Shown: in pieces, positions 4,717 to 33,273 of the stretch | Numbering within the stretch: the stretch's first letter is position 1 | How the letters are laid out: each line of letters opens with the position of its first letter | DNA from: Azolla caroliniana | Lineage: Eukaryota > Plantae > Polypodiophyta | Assembly (NCBI GenBank): GCA_043228905.1 | Contig: JBHGNT010000020.1 | Coordinates: 2,418,001 to 2,482,000 of the forward strand | DNA: 64,000 nucleotides | Direction: 5' to 3' | Program-made: the position numbers and the translations under genes | Notes under the pieces: generated by a model | Told to the model about the DNA's origin: nothing | What the model saw: the letters and a program-made list of their open reading frames with translations, nothing else | The model's database searches: none

Positions 4717-7656
4717 CATCCGTGAAGTCGTGATAAAGGGTTCCCCGAGAATCATGGAATGCAAGACCTCATCTTGCACGAAGAAATTTTGGTCAATCTC
4801 TACATCTCCTATCTTCACCGGCACATTCGGACAAGCCGCAAATAGGTCATCCATTGTTTTAGTAGACGCACGGATCTTCCATCCATGACTGGTGTTAATC
4901 AGCCCCTTCCCTTTCCGGTAGAACTCCTTGGACATCAGGTTGATCTCCGATCCATGATCAATCAATGCGACTACGCGCTCTTTGATGTTTCCAATTCGGA
5001 CTAGAGTCTCTGTAGTTGCTCGTGCCCAATGTGTCTTTGTGTAGTGGGAGTTTGAAATTTGGTCCTCCGTTTCCGTGTCATTCATTAGAATCATATTTGC
5101 ATTCACCTTTAGAGTATTTAAATATTCCGTAGCTTTCCTCTTTCTCTTCACAAGATCCACGAGGAGATCATGGAACTCTTTCTTTGCTATTCCGAGCAAT
5201 TCCTGGAGAGAAAATTCCACCCGACTATCAAGGATTCTCTCTTCGAACACCTTCTTTAGGTCCATTTGTTGTTCGATGTCCGAGGCGAGTTTGAATGCCG
5301 GAATCGTTTTCTCTTTTCCTTTTCCTTCGGAATTCCAACTCTGTGGTGTCTTCGAGGGTCCGGCCACATCGCCCGTGCACCGTCGTTTCTTATCTACGTA
5401 CACCTCATGTAATTGGTATAGGGCATATATGCTATTCTTATCTACGGGGCACTCCCATCCCGTAGCTTCCCAAATGCCTTCTGCAGTGCTCCGGATTTCA
5501 TCAGAGTGTGTTTTCTCGGAGATGCCTTGACTTTCTAACACTATCAAGGATTCTCTCTTCGAACACCTTCTTTAGGTCCATTTGTTGTTCGATGTCTGAG
5601 GTGAGTTTGAATGCTGGAATCGTTTTCTCTTTTCCTTTTCCTTCGGAATTCCAACTCTGTGGTGTCTTCGAGGGTCCGGCCACATCGCCCGTGCACCGTC
5701 GTTTCTCATCTACGTACACCTCATGTAATTGGTATAGGGCATATATGCTATTCTTATCTACGGGGCACTCCCATCCCGTAGCTTCCCAAATGCCTTCTGC
5801 AGTGCTCCAGATTTCATCAGAGTCGGTTTTCTCAGAGATGCCTTCACTTTCTGACACTTCTGGCTAGAAAGATGCCTTCACTTTAGATATTTCACCCACA
5901 TGCATTTCCGCGGTTGTCACATAATTGATTTTTACCTCTATCTCCTCCTCTAGGGCCTTCTTCATGCTGCATTTTCAGAAGTTCGGATGGAATGGCTTCT
6001 GAGTATCCATCGAATGGATCCGATTTCCTTCATAGTAGATAAGATCCGGCTGTAGAGCCTCCTTGAGCTGATCACATTCCTTCCGATCATGTTCGGCACT
6101 ATCGCACCATATGGACCGTCGGTCCATATACTTGGAACTTGTGGGACAGTCTTTTGATTTCTTCACCATGACAATCTTGAGATTCTCTATCTCTTTTAGC
6201 AATTGCTCCATCGTAGTTACTTCGATTCCCTTCTCGGTCATAGTTTCTCAAGCCCGTGGTTGGTAGTCTTCTGCTATGAATCTCAACCTCAACGTTTGTT
6301 CCCTACTCCTCTCTTCATGTCCAAGCCATTGCCCCCTCTTTGTGTATTGAGTGACGATGTTTCGCACATTTTCCCATGTATTGGTGAGGCCACTCTCGGT
6401 AGTCGTTTCCTCTAGAAGCACTCCAAGATCTTTCTAATCCCATATGTCCACAGCTCGTAAGAACATGATCACTTTGTCTAGTACGAGGATAGCTTGATCT
6501 CTCGCGGACAACCTCCCGAATCGACTTTCAAATGCCGAACATACATCAAGGACCTTCAACCCCTCTGTCTGGTGTTTCCACCCAATCTTTGAATCCCCTC
6601 CGCGACACCTTGGAGGAATCTTCGATAGCAAATGTAGTCTTTAGCGTTTCTTCAAACGCTTCCCATGTCAGATTTTGTTGTCGAATCCCGTGGATACTCC
6701 CTTGAAGCCCATCTGTAGCCACCCGATTGAAGGATGACATTTGCAATCCTTTCGATATCCCACAACGCAGCATCTCCGCCTTGTTGTCCCAAAGATAATG
6801 TGAAACATCCTTCCCATCGAAATGACCATTCCATTGCAAGAGTCGTTCTAAGGCAGCTCCAACCTCCGACATCGCGTGTGGTTCCTGTAGTATCCACTCC
6901 AATATTGCCATCATGTTGTTGTCCTCTTGTTGATTCTCCATCTCCTTGCCACCCATCTTCACGTCGGGTTCACCAAATGTGTCGTGGCTTTCGGCGCCAG
7001 ATCGTTGCGTGAGTCGGATGGGAACCATTGGGGTTTTGGAATAGGAGGAAGAATTTGAGATGAGTCTAGTTATGAATAGATTGTAAGAAAGAGAGAAAGA
7101 AACTTGTGAATCCCACAAGTATAATGTATTTTATTAATCAATATTTACATAAGAATATGAATTTAGATTGAAAGAGAATAATATAGAAACTTCGTGAATC
7201 CCACGAGTATAGTTTATTAATTGGTACTTCAAAACATATCCAATTTCCAAAGATTTTCACACCTTGTTACATTATACTCCCCATCCTTATATAGTAATAA
7301 GAGAGTTTTAGCAATCCATGTTTTTTCTCTAAATATCAACTCCATGCTTTTTCTATCAATAGACTATATGCTTTCTCTAACATGCTTTTTCTAAAAGTGA
7401 TCATGCGGGATATTTAGAAGCTATTTTATCTAGAAAATATAGTTGAAATAACCTTTCAATGTGGGATATCTATTTTTTAATATCTATGATGTGTTAGTAT
7501 AATGGTAAAGCTTTACATTATAAACATAGAGGTGTAAGGTTCGAATCTTGCCCTATGCATGTAATATATATTTTAATATTTATTTCTTTTTCTTCATATT
7601 TATTCAATCGGTTATTTTATATATTTTTCACGTAGTGTACAAAATACGCTACGACA
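4717..7656 (-). mobile_element. 5' part of an autonomous-type family-P element: 5' LTR (6980-7656), tRNA-Trp PBS (6958-6975), decayed Gag-protease
   Basis: ORFs 6546-7118, 5975-6241 and 4711-5547 align by eye with the Gag-PR ORF 54021-56147 (ALIDHGSEINLM). PBS reads TGGTGAACCCGACGTGAA. Confidence 0.9.
5224..5850. repeat. About 316-bp tandem duplication inside the decayed gag
   Basis: ACTATCAAGGATTCTC...GAGATGCCTT starts at both 5224 and 5540. The peptide STAEGIWEATGWECPVDKNS is duplicated. Confidence 0.9.
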
Positions 7657-9962: not shown

Positions 9963-12900
9963 TGTCGTGCCTTTCGGCCCCGGATCGTTGCGTGAGTTGG
10001 GTGGGAACCGTTGGGGGTTTGGACTAGGAGGAAGAATTTGAGACGAGTTTAGTTATCAATATGAATAGATTATAAGAAAGAGATATAGAAACTTGTGAAT
10101 CCCACAAGTATAGATTATTAGATTTATTAATATTTAGAATCCTAATTACAATTTATCATAGATTGGAAGAGATAAATTATATAAAACTTCGTGAATCCCA
10201 CGATTATATTAATTGGTGTTTTAGGAAATATACCCAATTTCCCAAATATTTCACACCTATTACATTGTGCTCCTCATCCTTATATAGTGATGAGAGAGTC
10301 TTAATAATCCATGCTTTTTCTATAGATAGACTCTATGCTTTTTCTAAAGTGTTCATGCACACTAAATGTGCATGAGTTGCTTTTTACATGATGCTTTTAT
10401 TTCCTAAATATAGTGCTCATGTTCGCTAGATGTGCACGAGTAATATTTTATTGGTTTACATTTTTCTTATAAATAAAGTATTCACGCACTCTAAAAATGC
10501 ATGGCTTACCTTTTTAATAAAGGTAGGCGTAAATTAAGGTCTTATAGGTATTAAATCTATATTTAAAACACTAATGATAAGTTAGTACAATGGTAAGGTT
10601 GGGGTTTGTCTACATGGAGGTATAAGGTTTGAATCTTGCTCTATGCACGTAATAAATATTTTTTTAATATTTTATTTTATTTATTATACGTACTTTAAAT
10701 CGGATATAGTATTTTACATATTTCACGTAGTGTGTGATTCACAATACGACACTCGCCCCCTTCGAACCCGCACATCCTCCGGTATGTGCCGAAGCTGTCG
10801 GTGATTGTTAGTCTCATCCGTTCGGTCTCCACCCGATTGGTTTCGTCGTTGGTCGTGCTTGGTTGCCGGCTCCGCCTGGTTTCCGATTTTCAGTTGCTTG
10901 CTCCGCCCGGTTACCGGTTGCCGGCTCTCATATTTCTCCTTTACTCGCAATCCCCTCCGTTTTCTCTTGTTATGTTGACTTTGTCTCTCCATTTTGAGCA
11001 CATCCATTCTTTCCACCCGAACCATTGTCGCCATCCGATCCACCATATTCTTTGTTCTCTCTTTGCATTGCCATGGTCGGTTGCCATGGCTCCTTGTGAT
11101 CCTCTTGAGCATAACCCTTCTTGTCTTGTGCATGTGCCATGCTTCCCACTTTGTTCACCTTTGTCATATAATCTCGCGTTAGAGTTGATAATCTTCATGT
11201 TAGAGCTCACCGTCTTTGTTAAGATCTCATTGTTAATAATACCCTTCAAATCCGCTTGGCCCTTGTCGTCTGTGGTAGTGTGCCTGTTTGGCGTCTTCCT
11301 CGTGTTCACCAGCCTCGATTGCTTCGACCTCCGGTTGAGTCGAATTAGCTTCTTTTTGGATCAGTCTTGTCTGATCGGTGTTCGGTTGGATCGGCTTCCA
11401 ATCGAATTCATATTCGGCCGATTCGGACTCGGTTGATCGGTTTTTACCGATTCGGCCCCCTTCCGGGTCGGTTTCGATCTATCGGTTTCAGTTTCGGTTG
11501 GCTTTCTTTTCCTCGTTTTCACCGGCCTCGACCGGTTCAACCTTTGACTAAGTCGGATTAGCTTCTTTCCGGATCGGTCTCGTCCGATCGGGTTTCAGCT
11601 AGGTCAGCTTCCATCTGTATTCGCGTTTGGCCGAATCGGACTCGGTCGATCGGTTTTGATCGAGTCGACCCCCTTTCGGGTCAGCTTTCTTTCGGATCGG
11701 AATTTTGTCCGGATCATCTTCCATCCGAACCAGCTTCCGACTTTACCTTTCTTGCCGCCACCTCCCGTCTCTCCGGTCTCACGTTGCTTCTCGGACACAA
11801 CCGCCGAAGTCTCTAGGATTAGTGGGCAGGAATCCTTGGTATTATCGTTCTCCGTCATTTCACGCATATCCACCTTCTTGGCTATCTCTCTGTTGTATGC
11901 ATCAACTTCGGCCTTCGTTTTCTCTCTGCCACCTTCCGTCTCTTCGGTCTCACGTTGCATTTGGAACGCAACCGCCGAAGTCTCTAGAACTAGTGGTGGG
12001 AAAGTCTTCATACAGCCATCCGTCATTGATTTGTCCATAGCCACCTCCGATTCGATGTCATCTTTCATGGTGACTTCCTCAATCAAGTCCGCCTCGCACT
12101 CTTTATCTCCCTCGATCATGCAAGCATCGATTATGCTTACCCCTTTTTCACCCGATGTTTCGGATACTTGTATTCCGAAACCTTCTTCCATTCTTGAAGT
12201 GGTGTTCGCCACTCTCAAGTCATCGACCTTATCCTTGGTCGTCGTTCTTTCGCAAGACGAGAGGATGCCTTGTTCCACACCCTCTCCCATGGTACCGTCG
12301 AATCGTACTTTGGCCTTCATATCAACCACATCGTTAATCCTTAATCGATCATCCCTTATAGGCCATGTTGTTGTTGACAAGATTCTCTTCTTCCTCTCAT
12401 CATGTCTCCGACATACCCTTTTGACATTGGTCCAATCCTCAGTAAGACCATTCGCACCGTCATCGTCTTCGAGTTTGATCCCGATGTCCATCCTTTCTTT
12501 CTGATCGATCGACTTCATGAACATTAGGACTTTATCCATCCCCACCAATCGTTGTTCCCGCTCCGAGAGTTGAGCAAAATGATACTCAAACTCTAAGAAT
12601 GCTAGTGTTGCAGTTCGGTGAGTCTTTGCCGATGCCACCCACTAGTCAAACTCGCATCGATCTCGTCCCATCAATCTCTCGTAGTCATACTTCTCCAATA
12701 GTGCTTTCTCAAAGGACACCCACGTTGTGTTTTGTTGTCGTATCTCGTATATGCTCTCTTGCAGCTCGTTCGAGGCCACCCGACTAAAGGATATCACTTG
12801 CAATCCTTCAGGTATTCGACATCGCATCATCTCCGCCTTATAGTCACGTAGATAGCGTGACACATCATTTCCGTTGAATTGCCCGTTTCGTTGCACAAGC

Positions 12901-13831
12901 CACTCTACTACCGACTTCATCTCTAACATCGCACGTTGCTCTTGTTGCATCCGTTTGATCATCATCATCATTATGCTCATCGCCTCTTGTTGATTCTCCA
13001 TCTCCTTGCCACCCGCCTTCACGTCGGGTTCACCAACTGTGTCGTGCCTTTCGGCGCCGGGTCGTTGTGAGAGTCGGGTGGGAACCGCTGGGGTTTTGGA
13101 TTAGGAGGAGGAAGAATTTGAGATGAGTTTAGTTATCAATATAAATAGATTATAAGAAAGAGATATAGAAACTTGTGAATCCCACAAGTATAGATTATTA
13201 GATTTATTAATATTTAGAATCCTAATAACAATTTATCATAGATTGGAAGAGATAAATTATATAAAACTTCGTGAATCCCACGATTATATTAATTGGTGTT
13301 TTAGGAAATATATCCAATTTCCCAAATATTTCACACCTATTGCATTGTGCTCCTCATCCTTATATAGTGATGAGAGAGTCTTAATAATCCATGTTTTTTC
13401 TATAGATAGACTCTATGCTTTTTCTAAAGTGTTCATGCACACTAAATGTGCATGAGTTGCTTTTAACACTATGCTTTTATTTCCTAAATATAGTGCTCAT
13501 GCTCGCTAGATGTGCATGAGTAAGATTTTATTGGTTTACATTTTTCTTATAAATAAAGTATTCACGCACTCTAAAAATGCATGGCTTACCTTTTTAATAA
13601 AGGTAGGCGTAAATAAAGGTCTTATAAGTATTAAATCTATATTTAGAACACTAAGGATAAGTTAGTACAATGGTAAGGTTGGGGTTTGTCTACATGGAGG
13701 TATAGGGTTTGAATCTTGCCTTATGCACGTAATAAATGTTTTTTTAATATTTTATTTTATTTATTATATGTACTTTAAATCAGATATAGTATTTTACATA
13801 TTTCACATAGTGTGTGATTCACACTACGACA
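9963..13831 (-). mobile_element. Complete non-autonomous family-P element (Gag-like ORF only, no pol); LTRs 13040-13831 and 9963-10751
   Basis: Two highly similar LTRs, Trp PBS at 13018-13035, PPT at 10752-10763, flanks CCAT/CCAC. The internal 2.3 kb has no RT, RNase H or integrase motifs. Confidence 0.92.
11604..13022 (-). pseudogene. Gag-like ORF with long acidic C-terminal extension, one in-frame stop at about 12642
   Basis: ORFs 12642-13022 and 11604-12638 share a frame. The N-terminus (QRNGQFNGNDVSRYLRDYKAEM) matches family-P Gag. Confidence 0.75.
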
Positions 13832-14013: not shown

Positions 14014-14771
14014 TGTCGTAGTGTATTTCGTACACTACGTGAAAAAGTAAAAATAATATAACCGATTTAATTACATATAAATAAATAAAATAAGAATATC
14101 AAGATATTTATCACCAATAAATAAAATAAGAATATCAAGATATTTATCACGTGCATAGGGCAAGATTCGAACCTTGTACCTCCACATAGCCAAATCTCAA
14201 CTTTACCATTATGCTACCTTATCTTTAGTATTCTACAAATAGATTTAATAACTATAAGTGCTTTATTTGCGCCTACCTTTATTAAAAGGTAAATCATGCA
14301 TTTTTAGAGTGCGTGAATATTTTATAGAAAAACGCAAGCGACTAAAAAGTGACTCATGCACATCTAGCATGAATGAGCACTATATTTAGCAAATAAAAGC
14401 AAGGATTAGAAAAGCATCACATGCACATTTAGTGTGCATGAACATATTAGAAAAAGCATGTAGCTATGCTTAGTCTCTCCCATCACTATATAAGGATGGG
14501 GAGCACATTGTAGTTTTTGTTGATTATTTTTCTATAATGATCAATCAATCTAAAATATTCGTGGGATTCACGAATTTGCTAAAATAATTCTCTCTTACTA
14601 CCTAAATATTGACTAAATATACTAAACTCGTGGGATTCACGAGATTCTTATCTTATAACTCTTTATACCTAATCTTTACTAGCTTTATTTGTATTTTTCT
14701 TTCTCCTAGTCCAAAACCCCAGTGGTTCCCACCCGACTCACGCAAATGATCCGGAGCCGAAAGGCACGACA
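14014..14771 (+). mobile_element. Family-P solo LTR
   Basis: TGTCGTAGTG...GGCACGACA with perfect 4-bp TSD ACGC/ACGC, inside the copia RT (KGYA|Q). Confidence 0.93.
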
Positions 14772-15292: not shown

Positions 15293-17798
15293 TCTCTTGC
15301 ACCTCGTCTTGGTGATCCAGTGTTTGATAATCAAAAGCAGGTAATCTTGGGACCAACACGTTTGCACACAACGCGGATTTTTCACACTCCACTAGATTCC
15401 TGGATTATCGATGCCATACATGCTAACCTGAAGACTGATAATTTTGCTCAAGCCATTCTAGCGCACATTGATACCTCTTGGGCATCCTGTTCCTAGTCTC
15501 AACAACCAGGTATGAACTATCGACAATTCAAATATCATGATGATTTATCGTTCTTTAAAAAGCTCGTATATGTTCCTGATTGCTCTTGTCGCCTTCAAAT
15601 CGTCCAAAATTGTCACGACACCCATACAACGGGACATTTTGGTAGTACGAAAACGTTGGATCTAGTTCAACGATCCTTTTGGTGGCCCCATATGCGACGT
15701 TTTATCAATGACTACGTTCGAACCTGTGATGCTTGCTACTGAGCAAAGATGCCACGACATCATCCATATGGCTTGTTGCAACCCTTACCGTTTCCAAGTA
15801 AGCCGTGGCAGTCCATTTGTCTTGATTTTATCACAGATCTGCCAGTCTCGAAGGGTTTCGATGCTATCTTAACCGTTGTTGATCGATATACTAAGATGGC
15901 ACATTTTGTGCTGTGTACTAAGGCCATCACTAGTGAGGAAACCGCCGCCCTTGTCATGTGTGAGGTATTTCGGCACCATGGCCTCCCAGATAGTATAATC
16001 AGTGATCGAGGACCTCAATTCGTCTCCAAATTTTGGAAGCATCTCTTCAAGATGCTCAAGGTCTCGTGTAATCTCTCCTCCAACTACCATCCCCAGACCA
16101 ATGGGCAGGCGGAACGAACAAATCAAACATTGGAACAATACCTCCTGTTACCGGCCGGCAAAGGAGTCCAGAGTGGGAAACGGAGAGCTAATTAAGTAGT
16201 AGGAATGTGGTTGTAATTAAGCTATGAGTGTGGACGGACGGACCGGAAGCGGTATGCCGTTCCGGATCCAGACCGATCCCGAACAGGTGCGGATGGCACC
16301 GTTTTGTAATACAGACCGGAAACCTATTTAAAGGCTCGGATACAATGTAATAGTTAGCGGTTAATTAATGAAAGCTTAAGCGTTGTTATATCTCTGTGTT
16401 AATTGCCGTTCTGTCTTAATTGTTATATCTTACGCGTGTTATGAAGACGATCCTAATAAGTAACTTGATTAAGTCGGATTAAGCGTTGAAGTCTAATCCG
16501 GTTGCCGTAACACCCTTTGGTGAAGTGTCTCCCGTAGACACCCTGTGTTAGGCCATTGTCCGGCCCGAAGAGTTAACACCTCTGGTGTTTTCTGAGTTAT
16601 CAGCAGGACCATTAGGTTGATATTCTCCGCTTTGCGGAGTTTGCTTATAATAACGCTATTCACTCCTCGACTCGGGTCTCCCCATTTTACGCTTATACTG
16701 GTTCTCATCCTTGTTGGTCTATGATTGACACCCCGAAGCCACCTACCAATCCTTGTGTCGAGGATCATTTGGAGAGGCTACGCATGATCCAGATGGATCT
16801 CTCTACTCATCTTCGTCATGCTCAACACACACAGAAGGCTTATGTGGATCGTCATCGGCATCCCTCCTCTTTTGCCATCGGAGATCAAGTATGGCTCTTA
16901 CGTCATCACATCAAGACTACTCGACCATGTGACAAGTTGGATTATCGATGACTCGGTCCTTTCCGTATTACCGGTAAGGTTAATGATGTCACATTCCACC
17001 TTGATCTTCCTCCGCATCTTCAGATACATCCGGTCTTCCATAGTTCTCTTCTTGAACCTTATAAAGCAAACACTATTCCCGATCGTGTTACACCACTGCC
17101 ATCCCCGCTTGAGTTAGACGCCAGCCCGGAGTATGAAGTTGTTGTCGTCCTCGGCTCAAAATTTGTTCGTAACAAACTTTATTATTTGGTCGATTGTCTT
17201 GGCTATAGTCCAAGCGAACGTACTTGGGAACCCATCGAGCATGTCGCCAATGCTCAGGATCTTCTTGCTGATTTCCACCGACAATATCCGGACAAACCCG
17301 GTCCTCCATCAGCGCGACTCGTTACACTCGTCGTCTTAAAGGGGGGATAATGTCATGATATGACAAGACTCGAACCCATGACCTTATGTTATATGGATCG
17401 AGCTCTTGACCATTATACCATCTATTCTAATGCGTAGGATATTATTTTCATTTAAGTTTTATTATAGGAAATTAATGTATATTCCAGATTTCTCTGGAAC
17501 ATTCTAGAAGCTTCAGGACTCCTCCTAAGAACACTATAAAAGGAGGCACAAGGCATTATGTTGAACCAAATTGGTTCAACGCCAGTCTTAAGCCTCATAG
17601 CCATCTTGTACTTACTCTTCATATAATATATCATCTGTTATCATCATCGCTCTCTCTCTCGTCCTCGCTATCTCTCTCTCTCTCTCCTCTTCTCTTTCCT
17701 CTCTTTCAGGAGTCTTACGCAATCCCTTCCTCTTAGTACTAATAGTACTTCCCTTCTCCAATACTAATTCTCTCTCCGTTTTAGTACTATTCCTGATA
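15293..17798 (+). mobile_element. 3' half of a family-T (Tcn1-like chromovirus) element: integrase, chromodomain, PPT, 3' LTR (17351-17798)
   Basis: Motifs PWQSICLDFITDLP, SDRGPQF and YHPQTNGQAER. PPT AAAGGGGGGATAA. LTR homologous to 22339-22761. The 5' end is fused abruptly to copia RT. Confidence 0.9.
16146..16578 (+). mobile_element. Solo LTR related to family C
   Basis: TGTTAC...GTTAACA with 5-bp TSD CCTCC/CCTCT, splitting the integrase at LEQYL|RCF. Shares CCCTTTGGTGAAGTGT...ACACCCTGTGTTAG with 4214-4716. Confidence 0.85.
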
Positions 17799-20700
17799 GT
17801 TTCAGACCATACAAGCTTTTCTTCAGTCGACACACCAGGTTCTCTTTATCTTTCCCCACAAAAACTTTGGGTTGCTGCATGTAGATCTCCTCGTCCAACT
17901 CCCCATGCAAGAATGTTATTTTGACATCCAACTATTCGATATCCAGATCCATAACAGTTCAATGGATATCGTTTTCACAACTGGAGAGAATATTTTATCA
18001 AAGTCAACACCCTTTTTCTATTGGAACCCCTTCACCACAATTCGGGCATTATACCTGGGTGCACTATCGACTTCTCTAGTTTTTACCTTGTAGACCCATT
18101 TATTCATGATTGCGCTTTTACCTTTTGGTAGCTCCATCAAGTTGTAAGTATAATTTTCATGCAAGGAATCCATCTCGTCCTGCATTGCACTTAGCCATTT
18201 CTCTTTGTGCTCATTATTCATGGCCTCATCATAGCACTCAGACTCACCTTCATCAATGAAGAGGATGTATTGATTGGCGTATGTGGTCAATGATCTCCTT
18301 TCTCTTAAAGGGTATCTCCTTCCACTCATTGTCAGCTCAAGGTTAGTCGCTAATCAACCGACTCTTCATTCGGCTCAGGTTCCCGCATGTCGATCGGTTG
18401 CTCAAGGTTAGCCAACTCCGACTCGTATTCCTCGATCAACTTCAGTAGGTCTGCTGAATCCGACTCATATGTATTGGTCGGTTGCTCTAAATCGACCTAC
18501 TCGGATTCGCCTATGCCGACTGGTTGTCTCCCAACAACCGATTGTGTCGGTTCGACTAGTCTTAAGTCAGCGGTAGTGGGAGTTGATTGGGAAATCGATT
18601 CGGACTTCTCTTGTTTCCAGTACTCGATCGTCTTGTCTTCCAAGAAGACTATGTCCTGACTCCTCATTATCTTCTTGTCGACTAAGTTCCACAACCTGTA
18701 GCCAAACTCATCCTTAGAGCACCCCATGAATATGCATGGTTTCAACTTCTTGTCGAGCTTCGAGCTCTGATCCTTTGCCACATGCATATACACCAGACAT
18801 CCAAACACCCTCAAGTGTCGGTAGGAGACTTCCTTTCCTGTCCACACCCTCTATGGGACATCGCCTTTCAATGGCACTGAGGGAGATCTATTGATCATAT
18901 AAACAGTTGTGTACATCGCCTCAACCCAATATGATTTTAGCAGGTTAGCATGCAACAAAATGCTCCTTACTCTTTCCATGATCGTCTGATTCATCCTCTC
19001 GGCAAGCCCGTTCAACTCAGGGGTCTTAGGAATAGTGTATTCAATTCGAATACCTTGGGCCTTGCAATATTCTTTGAACTACGCTCTATATTCACCACCA
19101 TTGTCGGTTCAGACAGCCTTCAACTTCCAACCCAACTCTCGTTCTGCCCTTGCTTGGAACTCCTTGAATACCGACAGTACTTGATCTTTCAACTTTCATA
19201 CGGAAGCCCACAACTTTCAATTGTAGTCATCAATGAAGTTCACAAAGTACGGTCCACCTCGATGTGATGGGGAATTGCGTAGCACACATCTATGTGTACT
19301 AGTTCCAATGCCGCTTCTCTTCTCCTTGGTGGTCTCGTGTGGAATGCAACTCTGTTCTGCTTCCCAACTAGGCAGTCGACACACTTCTCCAGGTGCACTC
19401 CGTTCACCTCCGGGAGAAGTTTCTGATCAGCTATGATGTGCATCCCCTTTTCAGTCATGTGGCCAAGCCTTTAATGTTATAACTCTCCATTCGAGTTGGC
19501 TGCCAGGTTTACTTCTGACTTGCACAACTTGGCTTGCATCATATACAATGTGCCTTGTTTCTGTGCTCGGGCCACTATGAGGTTTCATTTGCAGAACTTC
19601 CGCTTGCCATTACGAAAGCTACCAATATAGCCTTCGTCATCCATTCTTCTAGTCTATATCAGATTGAGCCTGATATCATGTACGTGTCGGACATCCTTCA
19701 GAATCAGCCAACAACCAGTCGACGTTGTCAGATATACATTTCCGACACCAACTATCTTGCATTCCCCATTATCTCCCATCTTCACATAGCCATGATCTAC
19801 GGCTATGTTGTCATGGAGTCGCTCACCTAGAAGTGTATCATTGCGTAGATAGAAGACAACTGAAAGTGAGGAAGGAATCGTTGGGATTTTGGACGAAAGA
19901 GACGAAAGAGTGGAAGTAGATAAATAGTGATCAACAAGATATGACAAGATATGATGTAAAATGATAATTGAGGGAATGTAAGAAATTTATAATTATTTCA
20001 TGGAAGAGTTACAAAATGGTTGCGAGCGTCGTTGAACCGTCAAACTTTGTCTCACAAGGTAGTCGCTCTTCTCTTTCTTGATAGTAGACCATAATCTTCC
20101 CTTCTATCTTTCGATGAGGATAAGACTCAAACCTCCGCCTTTTCGTTGCAAGTTGAGCACCGCCGCCGCCAAGCTAGTTCTTCTCTTGTCTTTTAAAGAT
20201 TGTATATAGCTTTTACCTTCTCTCCCTCTTTCTCTATTATGATATCTCTTACAATATAATTTCACTCAATTTCATACAATAATTCTATTCAATATGATTG
20301 ATTGATTCCTTGATATCCTTGTGCCTACACTCCCTTCTCCTTTTATAGGAATGGGATGGTTTTGCATGTGGGCCATATGTCACACATGGAAAGAGGGCTC
20401 TTGCATGTGTGCTATATGGTGCACATGTAGTACATTAAATGGTTTAGACTATACAATACTACTTCAAATAAAACAACACATTTTGTTTTACATATATAAT
20501 GAGTATTGTCTAAATTGTAGGATTTGAGGTTCATAATGTGGAGGTTGTTGGTTCAAGTCTTCTCTCGCCCATGTAATACAATATATGGTGCACATGTAGT
20601 ACATTATATGTTTTAGGATTTAAACCATACAATATTACTTCAAATAAAACAAGACATAGTTTTATATATACTACAATTATAGGGTAAATGGTAAGATTTC

Positions 20701-21255
20701 AAAGTCATAAGTTGGGGGTTATTGGTTCAAGTCCTCTCTTGTCCATGTAATATAATATATATGTTTTATTTGCCTCTACATATAGTGTATAATATTATCA
20801 TAGTGTGTTTTTAATATACCTTTATAAAAAAATATCAAGATATATTTTATTTTAGTTACATATTTATCTTTTTGTAGACTTTTAATGTGAAGCTTTCGTA
20901 CTTCACAACAACGTAAGTCTAGAAACACTCTCTCGAGGGAGTTATATGAAAGGATGCACCTGAGTCAATTACCCAAGTACACTCTTCACTTACAAGATTT
21001 GTGCTTGCCTGCTCACAAATAAACAAGATCTCCTCTTCACTTGTAGCAATGGATGATGTGCCCTTCTCCTCAGAAATCTTTTTGGGTTCAACATCCTTCG
21101 AGGCATCTTTGTCCTTCCTAAGGTGTCGAAAATCCTTCTGGAAGTGTCCAAGTTTTCCACAGAGTCACCACCAGGTTCTCCCAGTTGTCTGACAGGGTAC
21201 ACAATAGTAGTACGACCTGCATAGCATCATCAAGGGGAAACTTAGCTACCGCAAG
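17799..21255 (-). mobile_element. Decayed Ty1/copia (Tnt1/Tork-like) internal region
   Basis: Protease WVIDSGASFHITP (about 20935-20975), integrase HLRVFGC...KLD, and RT KWVYKVK...ARIVVKGF and LVCRLKKSLYGLK, all on the minus strand. Confidence 0.88.
19809..20910 (-). mobile_element. Solo LTR of a diverged P-related family
   Basis: Ends TGTCATGG...CACAACA look like CpG-decayed TGTCGTG...CACGACA. 4-bp flanks ATGT/ACGT. The copia protease frame resumes across it. TATA (CCTATAAAA, minus) at about 20341-20349. Confidence 0.75.
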
Positions 21256-21498
21256 TGTTGGGAAATAGGTCCCTCTGGATGGGATCTAGATGAGAAGACG
21301 AGCCGAAGGAAGGAATTGGACCGAATGGATCTTGAAGGAGTCCGGTTGGATCCGGTATGAACCAGGAAATAGGAACATACTAGTAAATATGTTCAGACGT
21401 GACTGTGAGGACATATTTGTAAATAGTCCCAAAGTTATATAAGTATAAATATAACTAAGGAAACATTGTTATGTGAGTGATCATCATTATTGTTGTAT

Positions 21499-21529
<31 letters not shown>

Positions 21530-22135: not shown

Positions 22136-22834
22136 AACTTTTTGGCACCTATTTTGCCAAATAAAGACTTACGATGAGGATCGCTCCTACAATAACTGCA
22201 CCATAAAAGACCAGTTTTCAAATCCTCTTGAAGCCACTTAAATTTAGTAAGTCAATCTTCTTGAAATTTTAGTTTGGCCTTACTAACTCTATTCATCTCA
22301 TGAAGTAACTCTTGAGAGTGTTTATGGTCCTTTATAGGTGTCATGATATAGCAAGACTCTAACCCATGACCTTATGGTATATGGGTCGAGCTCTTAACCA
22401 TCACACCATCTATTGTAATTCAAAGGATATTATTTTCATTTATGTTTTATTATAAGAAAGTAATGTATATTCCAGATTTCTCTGGAACATTCTAGAAGTT
22501 TCAGGATTACTCCTGACAACACTATAAAAGAAGGCACTAGGCATTATGTTGAACCAAATTGGTTCAACGCTAGTCTTAAGCCTCTCAGCCGCTTTGTACT
22601 TATCTTTTCACATAATATATTAGCTGTTGTCATCATTTTTCTCTCTCTCTCCTCTTCTCACTTCCTCTCTCGGGAATCTTACGCAGTCCCGTCCTCTTAG
22701 TACTAATAGTACTGCTCTTCTTAGTACTAATTCCATCTCTGCTTTAGTACTATTCCTGACAGTTTGAACCAATTTTTCCTTTCCTCCAGCCTACTTGTCG
22801 TTCTCCCTCATCCTCCTACCCTTTTCCCTATACT

Positions 22835-23992
22835 ATGGCTACTGTTAGCACCCAAGAATATCAATCCGTTTTCTCCGAGTTACAGTGCCTAAAAGAAAAG
22901 TTTGTTGCCCTGGAACAAGAAAACCAACGGTTGATAGGGGATCTGCAACAAATCGCTCTCGAAAAACAACAAACGCAACAACAACATGGGGAGTTAGCAT
23001 TACAGGTACAACAATTCGAAGCAGCGTTGCAACAACAAGGATCAAGTCCCCAAGGATTTCATAAAGAGCCCAAGATTGGACTTCCTATGAAATTTGATGG
23101 AACATGATCGCAATTCCGGGGATTCCTTAATCAGGTACACTTAGTCATCCAGATGCATCCTTCCCGATATCCCACTGATGCATCTCGAGTCGGCCTAATA
23201 GGCACGTTACTTAGCAGCTCAGCCTTGGCATGGTTCGCTCCGCTTCTAGAAAAACAATCCCCCTTGCTTAATAACTTTGAAGATTTTATTGGTGAGTTTA
23301 AAGCCTGCTTTGGAGATACCGACAGCATCAGGACGGCGATCAACAAGATCCGAAGATTGCGTCAAGGCGATCGTCCAGCCTCTGCCTACGCGGCGGATTT
23401 CCGTCTACTCGCCTCAGATATTCCCTGGGATGATCAGGCCTTCATGGAGCAGTTTTGCTACGGCTTGCGCAATGATGTCAAAGATCTGCTTTTAACCTTC
23501 CCCGAAGAACCAAAGTCTCTTACGGAGGCAATCAGTCGAGCGGTCTGATGTGACAACCACCTTTTCGAATGGCGTTCGGAGCGTCAGTTACAAATACCAC
23601 GCTCTCGGTCGGAACCCACATACGCCTCAGTCACGGCTAAACCGTTTGCACGCGATGTACCTCAAGCCAATATTCCGACACCGATGGAGATCGACACCAT
23701 GCGTCGACGCGGCCCGTTATCGGAAGAAGAAAAGCAACGACGACGTGCCAATCGATTATGCCTTTATGGCGGTGGACCAGGGCATATCGCCATCAATTGT
23801 CCCCATAGGCCAAGAAGACAGGTAAATCAAATCGTCGCCTGTACTAAACCCGAGTCAATTCTTCCCTTCGGAGTGTCTGATAGTATTAATAGTACTAATA
23901 GAGTGTCAGATAGTATTCATAGTACTAATAGCCCAAGTATCTCAAACAAATTTGAAATCCTTAGTCAATTAGATGAAGAGTTAAACAATTGA
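22835..23992 (+). pseudogene. gag of family-T element, with in-frame stops
   Basis: EPKIGLPMKFDG, LRQGDRPASAYAADF, PMEID and a degenerate zinc knuckle CLYGGGPGHIAINC. TGA stops at about 23105 and 23546. Confidence 0.88.
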
Positions 23993-26900
23993 GTCCAGCC
24001 AAAATAGGAGTCATTTGGTTGGACAGCAGCCCTAGATCTGTACAGCCCATTAGTGGTTCCATTCCTTCCAAGCAAGTTAGCAATGTGTTCCTAGCCCAAG
24101 TCATTGTTAGTACTAAAAGTACTCCCCCAATACCCGTCCTAGCACTCTTAGATTCCGGAGCTAATTCTTGTTTCATGGATTGAAATTTTTCCCAAGCTTC
24201 TCAGATATCCCTAAGAAAACTTCCTTGTCCCGCATCTGTAGTAGTCATTGATGGTCATCCCATTGCTTCCGGGAATATTGTAGAAGAATCAGAACCCATT
24301 CAAGTTATCCTAGGTAGTTTTGTGTGTGTAATATCATTTAATATAATTAGTAGTCCAGAGCATCCCATTGTCCTAGGATTACCTTGGTTTGAATTACATA
24401 ATCCAGCCATAGATTGGAGAACAAGAGAAGTCCGATATCGACCACCCCAAGAATCTACTCACCGAGTTTCGACCATTTCACTCCATCAATTACGCGAAGA
24501 AGGACACAAGGAGGCAATGATCCTATTTGCAATATCAGTACATCCTTCCAGCACTATTAAGAAGGACTCCTCAGTACAACTTCCGACAAAATATCATCCT
24601 TATGCCGATGTATTTGACAAGGTAAAAGCCGGTACCCTTCCTCATCACCGTCCCTATGACTGTCCCATCGATTTACAACCAGGAACCGAGCCACCATGGG
24701 GACCAATTTACAACTTGTCACCCACCGAGTTAGAAGTCCTTCGAGCCTACATAGAGGAGAACTTGGCAAGCGGGTTCATCCGTCATTCAAAATCTCCGGC
24801 CGGTGCACCCATCTTCTTTGTCAAGAAGAAAGATGGCTCACTTCGTCTCGTCATTGATTACCGCGGATTGAATAAGGTCACCATCCGGAATAGGTATGCA
24901 CTTCCTCTTATATCAAGTCTTTTAGAGCGAGTTAATGGTGCCAAGTTTTTTACCAAAATCAATCTACGATGAGCGTATAACCTCGTGCGGATCCGACTAG
25001 GAGATGAATGGAAGACCGCCTTTCGCACGCGGTATGGGCATTTCGAGTATACTGTTATGCCGTTCGGCCTAACCAATGCACCCGCAGTCTTCCAACACAT
25101 GGCAAATGATATATTCAGAGACCTCTTGGATATCTGTTTGATCATCTATCTTGATGATCTATTGATTTATTCGAAGACCCAGCAAGAGCACAATTCTCAT
25201 GTACTATTAGTACTAAAGCGACTCCGCGAGAATGGTCTTTATGCCAAGCTAGAAAAATGTAGCTTTGACTGTAAGCAAGTGGAATTTCTAGGCTACGTCA
25301 TCTCCTCAAAGGGCATTGCCATGGATCCAGCTAAAGTCCAAATTGTACTAGAGTGGCAAATTCCACGGTCGATACGAGATGTACAATGTTTTCTAGGTTT
25401 TGCTAGCTTCTACCGTAAGTTTATACAGGATTACTCCAAGATTATCTTACCCCTCACACAACTTACGAAGAAGGGCCAAGCATTTCTTTGGTCCATTGAA
25501 GCAGATATGGCTTTTCGGCATCTTAAGAAAGCCTTTACATCAGCACCGATTCTAGCTCATGTGGATACTAGCAAACCATTCATCATGGAGGCCGATGCTT
25601 CATATTTCGCCCTTGGTAGCATCCTTTCTCAACAAGGAGATAAAGAAGAGTTGCATCCGGTGGCTTTCCATTCGCGCAAATTCGATGTTGCGGAAATCAA
25701 CTACGAAATACATGACAAGGAGTTATTAGCCATCGTGGATTCATTTGTGCAATGGCGGCATTTCTTAGAGGGCTCTCCACAGCAGGTTGTTGTCTTTAGT
25801 GATCATAAAAATCTTGCTTATTTCCAGAACGCTCGCGTACTAAATCGACGGCAAGCTCGGTGGGCGCAATTCCTCACACATTTCGACTTCAAAATCACAT
25901 ATTGACCGGGGAAACAACAAATAAAAGCAGATGCACTATCACGACGTTCATATCTTGCACCTCGTCCTGGTGATCCAACATTTGATAATCAAAAGCAAGT
26001 AATCTTGGGACCAACACGATTGCACACAACGCAGATTTTTCACACCCCGATGGATTCACGGATTACTGATGACATATGTGCAAACTTGAAGACAGATAGT
26101 TTTGCTCAAGACATCCTGGCGCACATTGATACTTCTCGGGCATCCTGTTCTCAGTCTCAACAACCAGGTATTGACTACCGACAATTTGAATATCATGATG
26201 GTTTGTTATTCTTTAAAAAGCGCGTATATGTCCCCGATTGCTCCTGTGGCCTTCAAATCGTCCAGCATTGTCACGACACCCATACGGCAGGACATTTCGG
26301 TAGTACTAAGACGTTGGAGCTAGTGCAGCGATCTTTTTGGTGGCCCCACATGCGCCGTTTTGTCGACGACTACGTTCGGACGTGTGATGCTTGCTGCCGA
26401 GCAAAGATACCACAACACCATCCATATGGCTTGTTGGAACCCTTATCGATTCCAAGTAAGCCGTGGCAGTCTATTTGTCTTGATTTTATCACAGATCTGC
26501 CGGTTTCGCAGGGGTTCGATGCTATCTTTAACCGTCGTCGATCGATATACGAAGATGGCACATTTTGTTCCGTGTACTAAGGCCATCACTAGCGAGGAAA
26601 CCGCCGTCCTAGTCATACGTGAGGTATTTCGGCATCATGGCCTCCCAGACAGTATCATCAGTGACCGAGGACCGCAATTTGTCTCCAAATTTTGGCAGCA
26701 TCTCTTCAAGATGCTCAAGGTCTCTTGCAACCTCTCCTCCGACTACCATCCTCAAACCGATGGGCAGGCAGAACGAACAAACCAAACGCTAGAGCAATAT
26801 CTCCGGTGTTTCCTGAGTTATCAACAGGACGATTGGGCCGAGATTCTCCACTTTGCGGAGTTTGCGTATAATAATGTTGTTCACTCCTCGACTCGAGTCT

Positions 26901-27562
26901 CCCCATTCTACGCTTATACCGGTTCTCATCCTCGTTGGTCGGTGATCGACACCCCAGAGCTACCTACCAATCCTCGTGCCGGGGATCATTTGGAGAGACT
27001 ACGCAAGATCCAGACAGATCTCTCGACTCATCTTCGTCATGCTCAACAGACACAGAAGACTTACGCGGATTGTCATCGGCTTCCCTCGTCTTTTGCCATC
27101 GGAGATCGAGTATGGCTCTTACGTCGTCACATGAAGACTACTCGAGCGTGCGACAAGTTGGATTATCGACGACTCGGTCCTTTCCGTATTACGGGTAAAG
27201 TTAATGATGTCACATTCCGCCTTGATCTCCCTCCGCAGCTTCAGATACATCCGGTTTTCCATTGTTCTCTTCTTGAACCTTATAAAGCAAACACCATTCC
27301 CAATCGTGTTACACCACCACCGCCCCCGCTGGAGTTGGACGTCGGCCCAGAGTATGAAGTTGTTGCCATCCTCAATTCCAAACTTATTCGCAACAAACTT
27401 TATTATTTGGTCGATTGGGTTGGTTATAGTCCGAGCGAACGCACTTGGGAACCCGTCGAGCATGTTGCCAATGCTCAGGATCTGCTTGCTGATTTCCACC
27501 GAAAGTATCCGGACAAACCCGGTCCACAATCAACGCCGACTCGTTCCACTCGTCGTCTTTAA
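23980..27562 (+). pseudogene. pol of family-T element (PR, RT, RNase H, IN, chromodomain), disrupted
   Basis: ALLDSGA, YLDDLL, EADAS, DFITDLP, SDRGPQF, GPF and chromodomain EYEVVAILNSK...YLVDWVGYSPSERTWEP. Several stops and one frameshift near 26530. Confidence 0.92.
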
Positions 27563-29544
27563 GGGGGAGATAGTGTCATGATATGGCAAGACTCGAACCC
27601 ATGACCTTATGGTATATGGGTCGAGCTCTTAACCATCACACCATCTATTGTAATTCATAAGATATTATTTTCATTTATGTTTTATTATAAGAAAGTAATG
27701 TATATTCCAGATTTCTCTGGAACATTCTAGAAGTTTCAGGATTACTCCTGACAACACTATAAAAGAAGGCACTAGGCATTATGTTGAACCAAATTGGTTC
27801 AACGCCAGTCTTAAGCCTCTCAGCCGCTTTGTACTTATCTTTTCACATAATATATTAGCTGTTGTCATCATCTTTCTCTCTCTCTCCTCTTCTCACTTCC
27901 TCTCTCGGGAATCTTACGCAGTCCCGTCCTCTTAGTACTAATAGTACTGCTCTTCTTAGTACTAATTCCATCTCTGCTTTAGTACTATTCCTGACAATAG
28001 GCTCTTCTAGAGACACATCTTCATTGGAAGATGACAAGTTTTTCCTAAACCCAGGCATTGTAAAGAGGTTGATTTGCTTTCCTTTGCCTTTCGTATTTTT
28101 GTTGTGGGACATACTGTAACAATAATGTAGAGTATCTTGGACTAGCATAATCTATGGATTCCATTTACAAGAAGGGGGAACATACATACACAGTCCATGT
28201 TTTCCAAAGAGAATAAGCAAATTAAAATACTTGGGATATATGGAAGATTTCGAGGCAATACAGGATCAAGTTTCCACTAAGGATCTTCCAATCTATCAAA
28301 AAATAAAGAAGAAAGAGGAAGGCTCACATTAGCTTACACGGACATGCAAATCCGTGTATGTAAATGTGAAAGAAATTGAGGGAACAAATATATTGCAAAT
28401 ATTATTGAAGGAAAAGATCAAGAGAAAAAAAGTAGTGTACATATAAAAACAAGAGGACAATACAAATGCAAGGTAATAATGCTCGCGGACTTTTCATGAA
28501 CCCATAAATAATTGAGTTTGAATTCATACGATGTAATAGAACATAAAATTGATTGAATATAACATGATTACCAAGAAACAAATGATAAAAAACAACAATT
28601 TTTGGAGTTAAGAGATGTGTGCAAGTCGGGAAAGGAATCTTGGAGCTAAATTTACAAGTATGAAACGTTTCACCATTTAAACGATCCATGAAAGATAAAT
28701 AAGAGTGTTAAATAACTAGACTTTCAACAATTCTCTACTAGGTACCAAAATCAACTCTCAACTTCACATTTTACAGAAGTGGTGTATATATTAAAACAAG
28801 ATGACAATACAAATGCAAGGTAATAATGCAATATACATGCCTCCTTGTGATTTATTCTTGTCTATTGTCATCATCTTTTTGCTTTTTTTGTGGTAAGATA
28901 ATTTGTTGTACATAATTCCCTCCCATTTTTCAACCTATCCTTCACTACATGTGTTTGAAATACATGTTGATTCTCATCTCAAATTTGTTGATTCATCTAG
29001 TTATATTGTAATAAGTAAATAGTATTTTAGTTTTGTCTAATTTGTTTATCATAGTAGCCCCTTGATGATGATGAAGAAGAGCAAATCTCTTCCCACACCT
29101 AGTTCCCTTACATCTTCACAACTTCATGTTCACCCATTAAAAAGAAGCGTCAAGGTTCAACCCTCTTCTCCAATGCACATACTTTGCAATGATCCCACAT
29201 CTCCAATGCACATACTTAGAATGTTCAGGAGACATTTAAGAAGTGATCAAATCACTTGATAATTGAAAATGTCATACATGAATGTTTGATTGAAAGCCTA
29301 CATTGCGATATATTGTAAAATGAATCTCTTCATTATTGTTACATTTTACGAATGATCTTAAGGTCTTATTGTCATCAAAGTACATATACGAAGCCTACAC
29401 TTATTAATATAAATATTCTAGAGTAAAAACATACAATCGAGAAGGAAAATAAACAATGTAATGGCAAGTTTACATAATTATATGAGAAAATGGATTGAGG
29501 GTACAAGACCCTAATGCTGAAAAATGTGCACTCACCCCGCAATA

Positions 29545-31020
29545 GAGAGCAGTGAATGGCGAGTAACGAGCAACTCCCAGTGAGCAGCACGTAACGAGCG
29601 GCGATCAACGAGCGGCAAGTAACACGCTGTCGTAGTGTGAAATACTATATCCGATTTAAAGTATGTATAATAAATAAAATAAAATATTAAAATAATATTT
29701 ATTACATGCATAGAGCAAGATTCAAACCTTATACCTCTATATAGACAAACCCCAACCTTACCATTGTACTAACTTATCCTTAGTGTTCTATATATAGATT
29801 TGATACCTATAAGACCTTTATTTATGCCTACCTTTATTAAAAAGGTAAGCCATGCATTTTTAGAGTGCGTGAATACTTTATTTATAAGAAAAATGTAAAC
29901 CAATAAAATATTACTCGTGCACATCTAGCGAGCATGAGCACTATATTTAGGAAATAAAAGCATAGTGTAAAAAGCAACTCATGCACATTTAGTGTGCATG
30001 AACACTTTAGAAAAAGCATGGATTGTTAAGACTCTCTCATCACTATATAAGGATGAGGAGCACAATGTAATAGGTGTGAATACTTTATTTATAAGAAAAA
30101 TGTAAACCAATAAAATATTACTCATGCAAATCTAGCGAGCATGAGCACTATATTTAGGAAATAAAAGCATAGTGTAAAAAGCAACTCATGCACATTTAGT
30201 GTGCATGAACACTTTAGAAAAAGCATAGAGTCTATCTATAGAAAAAGCATGGATTGTTAAGACTCTCTCATCACTATATAAGGATGAGGAGCACAATGTA
30301 ATAGGTGTGAAATATTTGGAAATTGGATATATTTCCTAAAACACCAATAATCAATAAACTATATTCGTGGGATTCACGAAATAATATAATACTTGTGGGA
30401 TTCACAAGGTTTTATCTCTTTTCTATTTCTACTCTAAACTATTCTAAACTATTTCAATTTATTTCTATGATTAAGATAAACTAAAACAACTCTACTTGTG
30501 GGATTCACAAGCTTCAATTAATCTATACATAACTAGACTCTTCTCAAATTCTTCCTCCTCCTAGTCCAAAACCCCAGTGGTTCCCACCCAACTCACGCAA
30601 CGATCTGGCGCCGAAAGGCACGACAGCGCAGGAATTAGCGAGTGGTGAGTGGCGAGTAACGAATGATGAGCAGCGAGTGACGAGCGGCAATCAGTGAGTG
30701 ACAATCAGCGAGTGACGAGCAGCAATCAGCGAGCAACGAGGGACAAGCAGCAATCAGTGAGCAACGAGGGACGAACGGCGAGCAGCAATTAGCAAGTGAT
30801 GAGCAGCAATCAGCAAGGAAGGAACGACGATCAACGAGTAATAAGCAACAAGCAGTGGGCAGTGGGCAGTGGGCAGTGAGCAGTGAACAATGAGTAGTGA
30901 GGAGCGTCAGCGAGTAATGAGCAACAAGTAACAAGCTACTACTAGCGAACAACGGGGAAGAGGAACGAGCAACAAGCAACGAGGAGGGATCAATGAGCAG
31001 TGAGTAGCGAGCAGGAAATC
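29545..31020. repeat. Degenerate about 7-nt-unit minisatellite (ACGAGCA/GTGAGCA/GTGGGCA type) split by a solo LTR
   Basis: Same repeat texture at 29545-29627 and 30626-31020. Confidence 0.65.
29628..30625 (+). mobile_element. Family-P solo LTR with internal about 210-bp tandem duplication including the TATA box
   Basis: TGTCGTAGTG...GGCACGACA with flanks ACGC/GCGC. GTGAATACTTTATTTATAAG...CACTATATAAGG occurs twice (from about 29869 and 30077). Confidence 0.9.
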
Positions 31021-33053: not shown

Positions 33054-33273
33054 ATTTTCAATGGGAAGATTAAAAATGATACCTTATGGGGCAAGCCTCC
33101 TTTATAAAGATGCATGAATCTACGTGATTATTTTTTATGTAATCTTAGTTATGGAGAGTCAAGCACAGTTTCTCCGAAAGAAAGGCAGAGTATTCGTTCA
33201 TTCGCCCATCACACTCTTCCTTCTTCGGTTCCAAAATCATCTAGCATAAGGACCCTTCTTTCTAACAATCGGC

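What the first reader, a model, noticed from the sequence alone, without database searches (positions are those of the whole stretch)
20500..20746. Tandem pair of tRNA-Met-like cassettes in a diverged solo LTR
Seen: two copies about 175 bp apart. Copy 2 reads TAGGGTAAATGG TAAGA TTTCAA A GTCATAA G TTGGGG GTTATT GGTTCAAGTCC TCTCTTGTCCA. Counting the A-box T (20680) as tRNA position 8, CAT (20706-20708) falls at anticodon positions 34-36 and TTC starts at position 54. TTCAA/TTGGG can pair around the loop. This is the clearest tRNA geometry in the window, in a third LTR type and again antisense to the inferred LTR direction. Inference: it supports a true tRNA origin of the cassettes and shows they can be amplified within U3.
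Basis: partly seen in the sequence, partly recalled or inferred. Interest (0 to 1): 0.7.

Follow-up and report, generated by a model that had tools for sequence, protein, structure and literature searches.

The report
Backward Pol III boxes in LTRs
The two tRNA-like stretches are not tRNA genes but backward-facing pairs of RNA polymerase III promoter boxes, found in the end repeats of three different jumping-gene families of what is likely a moss, where they are likely kept as a landing site for the host's tRNA-transcription machinery.

Summary
The two cassettes are there as described (B boxes 174 bp apart, CAT at positions 34-36), inside a 1,105-bp solo LTR and antisense to its inferred direction. 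They are not tRNAs. Rfam and ARAGORN give no tRNA call, the acceptor stems pair 1-2 of 7, and folding is no better than shuffles. 'Clearest tRNA geometry' is wrong: 746-817 scores better. What is real is an A box and B box at tRNA spacing (32-33 nt). The same unit lies antisense in U3 of all 8 LTRs of a Phygy-like family and all 4 LTRs of a self-priming Tcn1-like chromovirus in the window. Across 10 distinct cassettes 11 of 11 box positions are conserved against 13 of 42 others; the anticodon is not. Best reading: a tRNA/SINE-derived type-2 Pol III promoter, likely kept at DNA level; binding and transcription are untested. Closest known: Helenus/Cassandra (sense, tiny, non-autonomous) and foamy-virus LTR Pol III units. 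The scan earlier noted single backward tRNA relics in other genomes, read as passengers.

The parts
19806..20910 (-). Solo LTR, third family (F3), 1105 bp, TG..CA ends, no intact target-site duplication; superfamily unknown
   Evidence: empty-site joints; no homology to other LTRs outside the cassettes
20339..20348 (-). TATA box of the LTR (inferred Pol II promoter), 158 nt from T8 of cassette 1
   Evidence: present on the minus strand only
20413..20586 (+). Tandem unit 1 (AT-rich lead-in plus cassette 1)
   Evidence: (79% to unit 2), alignment
20582..20760 (+). Tandem unit 2 (AT-rich lead-in plus cassette 2)
20499..20571 (+). Cassette 1: A box 20506-20517 (position 18 is T in this copy, G in most laid contigs), CAT 20532-20534, B box 20550-20559
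20673..20745 (+). Cassette 2: A box 20680-20691, CAT 20706-20708, B box 20724-20733; no cloverleaf
17810..21255 (-). Degenerate Ty1/copia remnant interrupted by the solo LTR (approximate limits)
   Evidence: read from the sequence; joints
53210..60573 (+). Full-length Phygy-like Ty3/gypsy element (F1): 4-bp ACGC TSD, tRNA-Trp-type PBS, RT/RH/INT with in-frame stops; antisense cassettes at 53464-53531 and 59968-60035
   Evidence: the Trp assignment of the PBS is recalled
743..812 (-). F1 cassette, best tRNA-model match in the window (21.2 bits), folds as two hairpins
7493..7562 (+). F1 cassette (LTR on minus strand)
10581..10650 (+). F1 cassette, B box with T at position 56
13661..13730 (+). 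F1 cassette, B box with T at position 56
14150..14218 (-). F1 cassette in solo LTR 14014-14771
29704..29773 (-). F1 cassette in solo LTR 29628-30625, B box with T at position 56
22339..27996 (+). Tcn1-like chromovirus (CH): chromodomain, self-priming complement, antisense cassettes at the very start of both LTRs (22340-22410, 27575-27645)
17352..17422 (-). CH cassette at start of LTR 17351-17803
61297..61365 (+). CH cassette (LTR on minus strand), long hairpin z -4.6

Best explanation
Each cassette is a tRNA-gene-type A box and B box pair at tRNA spacing without a cloverleaf, likely captured as a tRNA-derived SINE head and likely kept because it binds the host factor TFIIIC on the DNA, just upstream of the LTR's TATA box and facing away from it. 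Shown: boxes, spacing, position in U3, presence in three LTR families, loss of stems and of a fixed anticodon, antisense orientation in F1 and CH. Inferred: orientation in F3; purifying selection on the boxes; TFIIIC/TFIIIB binding between cassette and TATA, which would keep the Pol II promoter open or fence it off from neighbouring silent chromatin, with a short outward Pol III transcript as by-product. The tandem pair is an ordinary U3 duplication that doubled the site.
For: 6 strict A..B sites vs 0.02 expected, all in LTRs. 8 of 8 F1 LTRs, 4 of 4 CH LTRs and the F3 LTR carry it. Over 10 distinct cassettes, 11/11 canonical box positions are >=0.9 conserved vs 13/42 other positions, Fisher p 3e-5 (B boxes were the search handle, so partly circular; the A box was not). 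In six F1 copies: A box 0.85, B box 0.91, positions 24-43 0.60, adjacent flanks 0.64-0.74, no gap column from T8 to 61. In F3 relatives from four runs (94, 44, 21, 38 contigs laid): 14 variant rows at 11 positions, all at tRNA positions 24-49, none in either box, no indel; p 0.009 after limiting to positions >=30 nt from the stretch ends. Loose ends too diverged to align still show the A box. No common RNA fold across families. F1 and CH RT/RH are 24-27% identical, so the unit is shared by distant lineages. tDNA/TFIIIC effects on neighbouring Pol II transcription are established in yeast (PMC4228148, abstract).
Against: No binding or expression data. One F1 subfamily carries T at B-box position 56 in 3 LTRs of 2 insertions, a base normally required (recalled), so it spread or survived without an intact box. 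In the whole F1 LTR the A box ranks only at the 84th and the B box at the 94th percentile of 10-nt windows, and positions 62-75 are also conserved, 0.82. CH LTRs are too alike overall (0.80-0.92 in flanks) to show box selection, and their A box is not better kept than the flanks (0.81). Laid contigs were pre-selected at >=80% likeness and local clipping favours central differences. T-runs after the cassettes are no closer than background. At least two other LTR types in the window lack the unit. A bound Pol III complex in the 3' LTR could hinder the element's own Pol II passage.
Confidence: 0.5

Rival explanations
1. Passenger relic: a tRNA-derived SINE head landed in an LTR, spread among families by recombination or repeated insertion, and decays without function; only antisense copies were tolerated.
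For: C56T subfamily; conservation extends beyond the boxes to 44-47 and 62-75; shared tail letters between families (F1-CH 0.63 at 62-71, F1-F3 0.46 at 24-43) fit one ancestor; Kojima proposes SINE insertion into LTRs as the origin of such units; two earlier scan notes read similar relics as passengers (unchecked).
Against: Box-versus-middle contrast within F1 and within F3 relatives; no indel between the boxes while the rest of U3 is full of gaps; similar place upstream of TATA in three families. No free-standing SINE copy in the window.
Confidence: 0.3
2. The cassette is a Pol III gene for a short structured antisense RNA (hairpin or dumbbell), used as a small-RNA precursor or decoy, as in foamy-virus LTRs.
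For: CH cassettes fold as long hairpins, z -3.0 to -4.6; F1 758 folds as two hairpins, z -6.1. F3 positions 23-30 are complementary to the B box (8/8 and 7/8 pairs, G-U included), in about the same register as in CH. Precedent: PMC3993851 passages.
Against: Both F3 copies (z +0.75, +0.82) and 7 of 8 F1 copies (z above -1.7) fold no better than shuffles; the structures differ between families; CH hairpins are nearly as strong on the other strand.
Confidence: 0.1
3. RNA-level bridge: the antisense copy in the genomic RNA anneals to the primer tRNA and helps minus-strand transfer, as proposed for HIV-1 U3 and the Ty3 bipartite PBS (both recalled, not read).
For: Explains antisense orientation, U3 location and fixed spacing; the 53477 subfamily matches the complement of its own PBS at 9/15 positions.
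Against: CH has no tRNA PBS but a 12-nt self-priming complement 34 nt after its TATA (Tcn1 self-priming in PMC6317226) and still carries the unit. The other four F1 cassettes compared match the primer end at only 6-7/15, no better than CH and F3 cassettes (5-8/15). The anticodon arm is the least conserved part.
Confidence: 0.07
4. The cassettes are working tRNA-Met/Ile(CAT) genes carried by the LTR.
For: CAT with T33 and A37 at canonical positions in both copies, mostly kept in laid contigs of two organisms.
Against: No acceptor stem, no Rfam or ARAGORN call, fold z > 0; stem letters private to this copy.
Confidence: 0.03

Closest known systems
Helenus (TRIMp3; Kojima 2024, PMC10886601; parts 1-4 of 6, searched passages and one supplement passage read)
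   Same: tRNA-derived A and B boxes inside LTRs, boxes conserved, tRNA function unlikely, proposed origin by SINE insertion
   Different: Helenus are 311-1263-bp non-autonomous elements; the Selaginella LTR is 120 bp with boxes in sense to the PBS, presumed to drive the element's own RNA. Here LTRs are 425-1105 bp with a TATA box, two families encode RT/INT, and the boxes face outward. The paper notes that 'not a few' Repbase LTRs hold tRNA-like parts but analyses only TRIMs.
Cassandra and Ajax TRIMs (as described in PMC10886601)
   Same: Small-RNA-gene-derived Pol III promoter conserved in LTRs
   Different: 5S-derived (A, IE, C boxes), non-autonomous; Cassandra's promoter makes the element's own RNA
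Foamy-virus LTR Pol III miRNA units (PMC3993851, passages read)
   Same: A/B-box Pol III units within the LTR of an autonomous retroelement, beside Pol II transcription
   Different: Animal retroviruses, conserved hairpin products with shown expression; here no common fold and no expression data
tRNA-derived SINE heads and extra-TFIIIC (ETC) sites (SINEs per PMC10886601; ETC per PMC4228148 abstract)
   Same: Type-2 Pol III boxes without a functional tRNA; possible effects on neighbouring Pol II transcription
   Different: Here part of LTRs and copied by LTR replication; no SINE tail, TSD or free copy seen in the window
Phygy and Tcn1 lineages (Neumann et al. 2019, PMC6317226, passages read)
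   Same: F1 has a 4-bp NCGN-type TSD and no chromodomain; CH has a chromodomain and self-priming; both are described from moss (Tcn1 also club-moss)
   Different: The passages read mention no Pol III boxes in their LTRs; lineage membership was not tested by phylogeny

Membership tests
tRNA gene (Rfam RF00005), tRNA-Met/Ile(CAT) | Score at or above the gathering threshold, or ARAGORN call | tested here: not met
tRNA gene (Rfam RF00005), tRNA-Met/Ile(CAT) | Cloverleaf with 7-bp acceptor stem | tested here: not met
   1/7 and 2/7 pairs; fold z +0.7
tRNA gene (Rfam RF00005), tRNA-Met/Ile(CAT) | CAT at 34-36 with U33 and R37 | tested here: met
   both copies; not in the 8 F1 and CH cassettes compared
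tRNA gene (Rfam RF00005), tRNA-Met/Ile(CAT) | Closest to host tRNA-Met among host tRNAs | not testable with these tools
   no host genome or plant tRNA set held
Type-2 Pol III promoter | A box and B box in order at 30-60 nt spacing | tested here: met
Type-2 Pol III promoter | T4+ terminator downstream | tested here: inconclusive
   T4 at 30 and 51 nt after position 61, but background median in this U3 is 35 nt
Type-2 Pol III promoter | TFIIIC binding or Pol III transcription | not testable with these tools
   needs ChIP or stranded RNA data
Helenus / TRIMp3 | tRNA-derived boxes in LTR | tested here: met
Helenus / TRIMp3 | Whole element under about 1.3 kb, non-coding | tested here: not met
   F3 LTR alone is 1105 bp; F1 is 7.4 kb and CH 5.7 kb with RT/INT
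Helenus / TRIMp3 | Boxes in sense to the PBS | tested here: not met
   antisense in F1 and CH by ORF direction, inferred antisense in F3; sense in Helenus-1_SMo
tRNA-derived SINE | Free dispersed copies with tail and TSD | tested here: inconclusive
   none in the 64-kb window; genome not available
Phygy (for F1) | NCGN target preference, no chromodomain, short internal part | tested here: met
   ACGC both sides at 2 insertions, ACGC/GCGC at a third, GTGG/ATGG (not NCGN) at a fourth
Phygy (for F1) | RT-RH-INT phylogenetic placement | not tested
   no reference set held
Tcn1 (for CH) | Chromodomain and self-priming instead of tRNA PBS | tested here: met
   PF00385; 12-nt complement
Tcn1 (for CH) | Phylogenetic placement with Tf1/Sushi | not tested
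   no reference set held

The most novel reading that the evidence does not exclude
Distant LTR retrotransposon lineages of mosses, including protein-coding Phygy and Tcn1 elements, share a selected, outward-facing Pol III promoter in U3 that recruits TFIIIC/Pol III as a portable chromatin barrier or activator for their Pol II promoter, a way of resisting silencing that my searches did not find described for plant retrotransposons; the tandem pair is a dose increase of that site.
Probability: 0.3. Interest if true: 0.75.

Novelty: new variant of a known kind. Interest (0 to 1): 0.5.

Why it matters
If the boxes are under selection, protein-coding plant LTR retrotransposons co-opt the Pol III machinery inside a Pol II LTR. 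The Helenus paper expected Pol III LTRs in tiny non-autonomous elements and thought it unlikely that they share long LTR stretches with autonomous partners. The unit would scatter many TFIIIC sites through the genome, offer a testable way in which elements stay active inside nested, silent repeats, and supply a possible source for Helenus-type elements. It also warns that loose tRNA annotation in such genomes can count LTRs. If it is a passenger, it is a minor marker of sequence exchange between LTR families.

Tried and rejected
No whole genome is held, so no genome-wide copy analysis. Sequencing-run search: 14 of 17 listed runs hold part of the LTR, none half of its words; no RNA holder listed, which says nothing on expression; 6 of the runs were laid. 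Summed contig depth was not used. One search showed 40 of 255 difference rows, so absence of a row there was not used. B-box-plus-tail pattern: 0 hits in viral contigs; 2 in metagenome contigs, both bacterial tRNA-Leu(TAG) genes; this shows the 3' end can be a real tRNA end but is post-selected and names no ancestor. A CAT-containing pattern gave 21 viral-contig loci; 12 of the 18 scanned hold a tRNA-Met call, circular and not used; the identity counts were out of register by one and were dropped. Relatives of the F1 and CH polymerases: none in viral contigs, none for F1 in genome contigs. mis-anchored the A box in 3 of 4 CH rows (gap 41); corrected. F3 as a diverged F1 LTR: rejected. Terminator spacing as evidence: rejected. 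Literature: searches returned 0 papers; the listings showed no report of antisense A/B boxes in plant autonomous LTRs (titles and abstract starts only; most subscription papers are not held). The HIV-1 U3 tRNA-like paper was not held and two reviews did not cover it in the terms searched.

Full report
Setting. [quoted passage not shown] No whole genome is held. Two families point to a moss. F1 has DUF4100, RT, RH and INT without a chromodomain, and 4-bp target duplications, ACGC at two insertions; Neumann et al. 2019 give NCGN preference as unique to Phygy (PMC6317226, passages). [quoted passage not shown] Neither placement was tested by phylogeny.

The locus. The finding lies in a 1,105-bp TG..CA element at 19806-20910 that interrupts a minus-strand copia. 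Contigs from four public runs join the copia across it, skipping about 1,115 bases. It has no intact target duplication. A TATA motif occurs on the minus strand, 562 nt from that end, and not on the plus strand, so the LTR likely reads right to left and 20350-20910 is U3.

Checking the observation. The quoted sequence and numbering are correct. The two units of about 170 bp are 79% identical. Both have T8, CAT at 34-36 and TTC at 54-56, with 32 nt between G19 and G52. They are not tRNAs. cmscan finds no RF00005 match at E<=10 in 20440-20800. ARAGORN finds 0 genes at default and reaches these copies only at settings that give 45 and 128 calls in the window. Acceptor stems pair 1/7 and 2/7. Folding energies are slightly worse than shuffles, z +0.7, while a real tRNA-Met control gave -2.8. 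The best tRNA-model match in the window is an F1 cassette at 746-817, 21.2 bits.

Related copies. Six of the 14 runs that hold part of the LTR were laid (five coded organisms, three studies). On 20664-20763, 94, 44, 21 and 38 contigs were laid from four runs. All 14 difference rows, at 11 positions, fall between 20696 and 20721 (tRNA positions 24-49). None is in the A box, the B box or the tail, and there is no indel. Limiting to positions at least 30 nt from the ends, to allow for clipping, the chance of sparing the box part is 0.009; the 80% likeness filter remains a bias. The C of CAT reads T in 11%, 4%, 0% (one contig) and 38%. Most contigs laid on cassette 1 read G at position 18. Joints show one-unit LTRs (20584 to 20765, 20580 to 20768) and other tandem repeats of the cassette or its B-box half, so amplification recurs. 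F1 LTRs, however, duplicate cassette-free U3 segments as well.

The wider pattern. A strict A..B pattern finds 6 sites in the window against 0.02 in 100 shuffles, all in LTRs. By homology the unit is present in 8 of 8 F1 LTRs and 4 of 4 CH LTRs, antisense to the ORFs where these are attached, and 114-332 nt upstream of the TATA box in the four LTRs measured. The profiles found no such unit in the two other LTR types (21256-21745 and 16146-16578). A profile of F1 plus CH finds F3 cassette 2 as its best outside hit, weakly (E 0.025). Across 10 distinct cassettes (near-identical partners left out: 13706, 29719, 59981, 22355), 11 of 11 canonical box positions are at least 0.9 conserved against 13 of 42 others; AGGT at 44-47 is almost fixed; positions 34-36 are CAT only in F3. 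In six F1 copies the A box is 0.85, the B box 0.91, the anticodon arm 0.60 and the adjacent flanks 0.64-0.74, with no gap between T8 and 61. Against this: one F1 subfamily has T at position 56; over the whole F1 LTR the boxes rank at the 84th and 94th percentile; CH copies are too similar to test. There is no shared fold: CH forms long hairpins (z -3.0 to -4.6), F1 758 two hairpins (z -6.1), and the other nine cassettes nothing beyond z -1.7.

How it likely works. What is kept is primary sequence at the two TFIIIC boxes and their distance, not an RNA shape and not an anticodon. That is the signature of a type-2 Pol III promoter acting on DNA. Because it faces outward, TFIIIB would sit between the cassette and the LTR's TATA box (established geometry, recalled), where it could keep the promoter accessible or block spreading of silent chromatin; any transcript would be a short antisense RNA ending at the next T-run, though T-runs here are no closer than background. 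[quoted passage not shown] I put this reading at 0.5, a decaying passenger at 0.3, a small structured RNA at 0.1, a tRNA-bridging role at 0.07 (the self-priming CH family has the unit without a tRNA primer) and real tRNA genes at 0.03.

Comparison with what is known. Helenus TRIMs have tRNA-derived boxes in their LTRs with the same boxes-only conservation (PMC10886601; parts 1-4 of 6, passages and one supplement passage read). They are small, non-coding and, in the plant example, sense-oriented; this locus fails size and orientation and is not a Helenus. That paper mentions that many Repbase LTRs hold tRNA-like parts but did not analyse the long ones, so scattered cases may already sit in Repbase, which I could not see. 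Foamy viruses carry A/B-box Pol III units in their LTRs (PMC3993851, passages). Ten searches showed no description of antisense A/B boxes shared by autonomous plant LTR lineages; the library lacks most subscription papers. Earlier scan notes record one backward tRNA relic in a fungal LTR and one in a gypsy tail in other genomes, both read as passengers (unchecked); none of the notes shown for this genome concerns U3 cassettes.

Verdict. Observation partly confirmed; Met identity and cloverleaf not supported; the real feature is a conserved, backward Pol III box pair shared by three LTR families. New variant of a known kind, interest 0.5.

Noticed in passing
window 14014-14771, 53210-60573, 29628-30625: F1 insertions have 4-bp target duplications ACGC (twice) and ACGC/GCGC, matching the Phygy NCGN preference; one flank of the F3 solo LTR reads ACGT, a weak hint that F3 may be Phygy-like too.
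   Followed up: partly
window 22522-22775: Chromovirus self-priming signature: 22764-22775 is the exact complement of 22556-22567, which itself lies in a palindrome just after the TATA box.
   Followed up: yes
window 17352-17422, 22340-22410, 27575-27645, 61297-61365: CH cassettes sit at the very first bases of the LTR and fold as long hairpins in which the B box pairs with the stretch after the A box; a Pol III transcript would run out of the LTR into flanking DNA or the end of pol.
   Followed up: partly
window 20521-20528 and 20695-20702: F3 positions 23-30 are complementary to the B box (8/8 and 7/8 pairs), in about the same register as the CH hairpin; may be a rod-like SINE-type fold.
   Followed up: partly
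window 10626, 13706, 29719: One F1 subfamily has T at B-box position 56 in three LTRs of two insertions.
   Followed up: partly
window 9963-13831: F1-type element on the minus strand with 95.6% identical LTRs, a PBS and an internal part of about 2.3 kb whose long frames had no Pfam hit: likely non-autonomous.
   Followed up: no
window 14014-14040, 20885-20910: F1 and F3 LTRs both begin with a short terminal inverted repeat despite no other similarity.
   Followed up: no
window 39795-40406: Minus-strand frame with a weak DCD (development and cell death) domain hit, E 8e-4, below cut-off: possibly an exon of a host gene within 33000-44000.
   Followed up: no
window 30628-30852 and 53287-53416: Short-period tandem arrays: 7-bp-based repeats right after an F1 LTR, and 23-24-bp repeats inside the U3 of the full F1 element, with different copy number in its two LTRs.
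   Followed up: no
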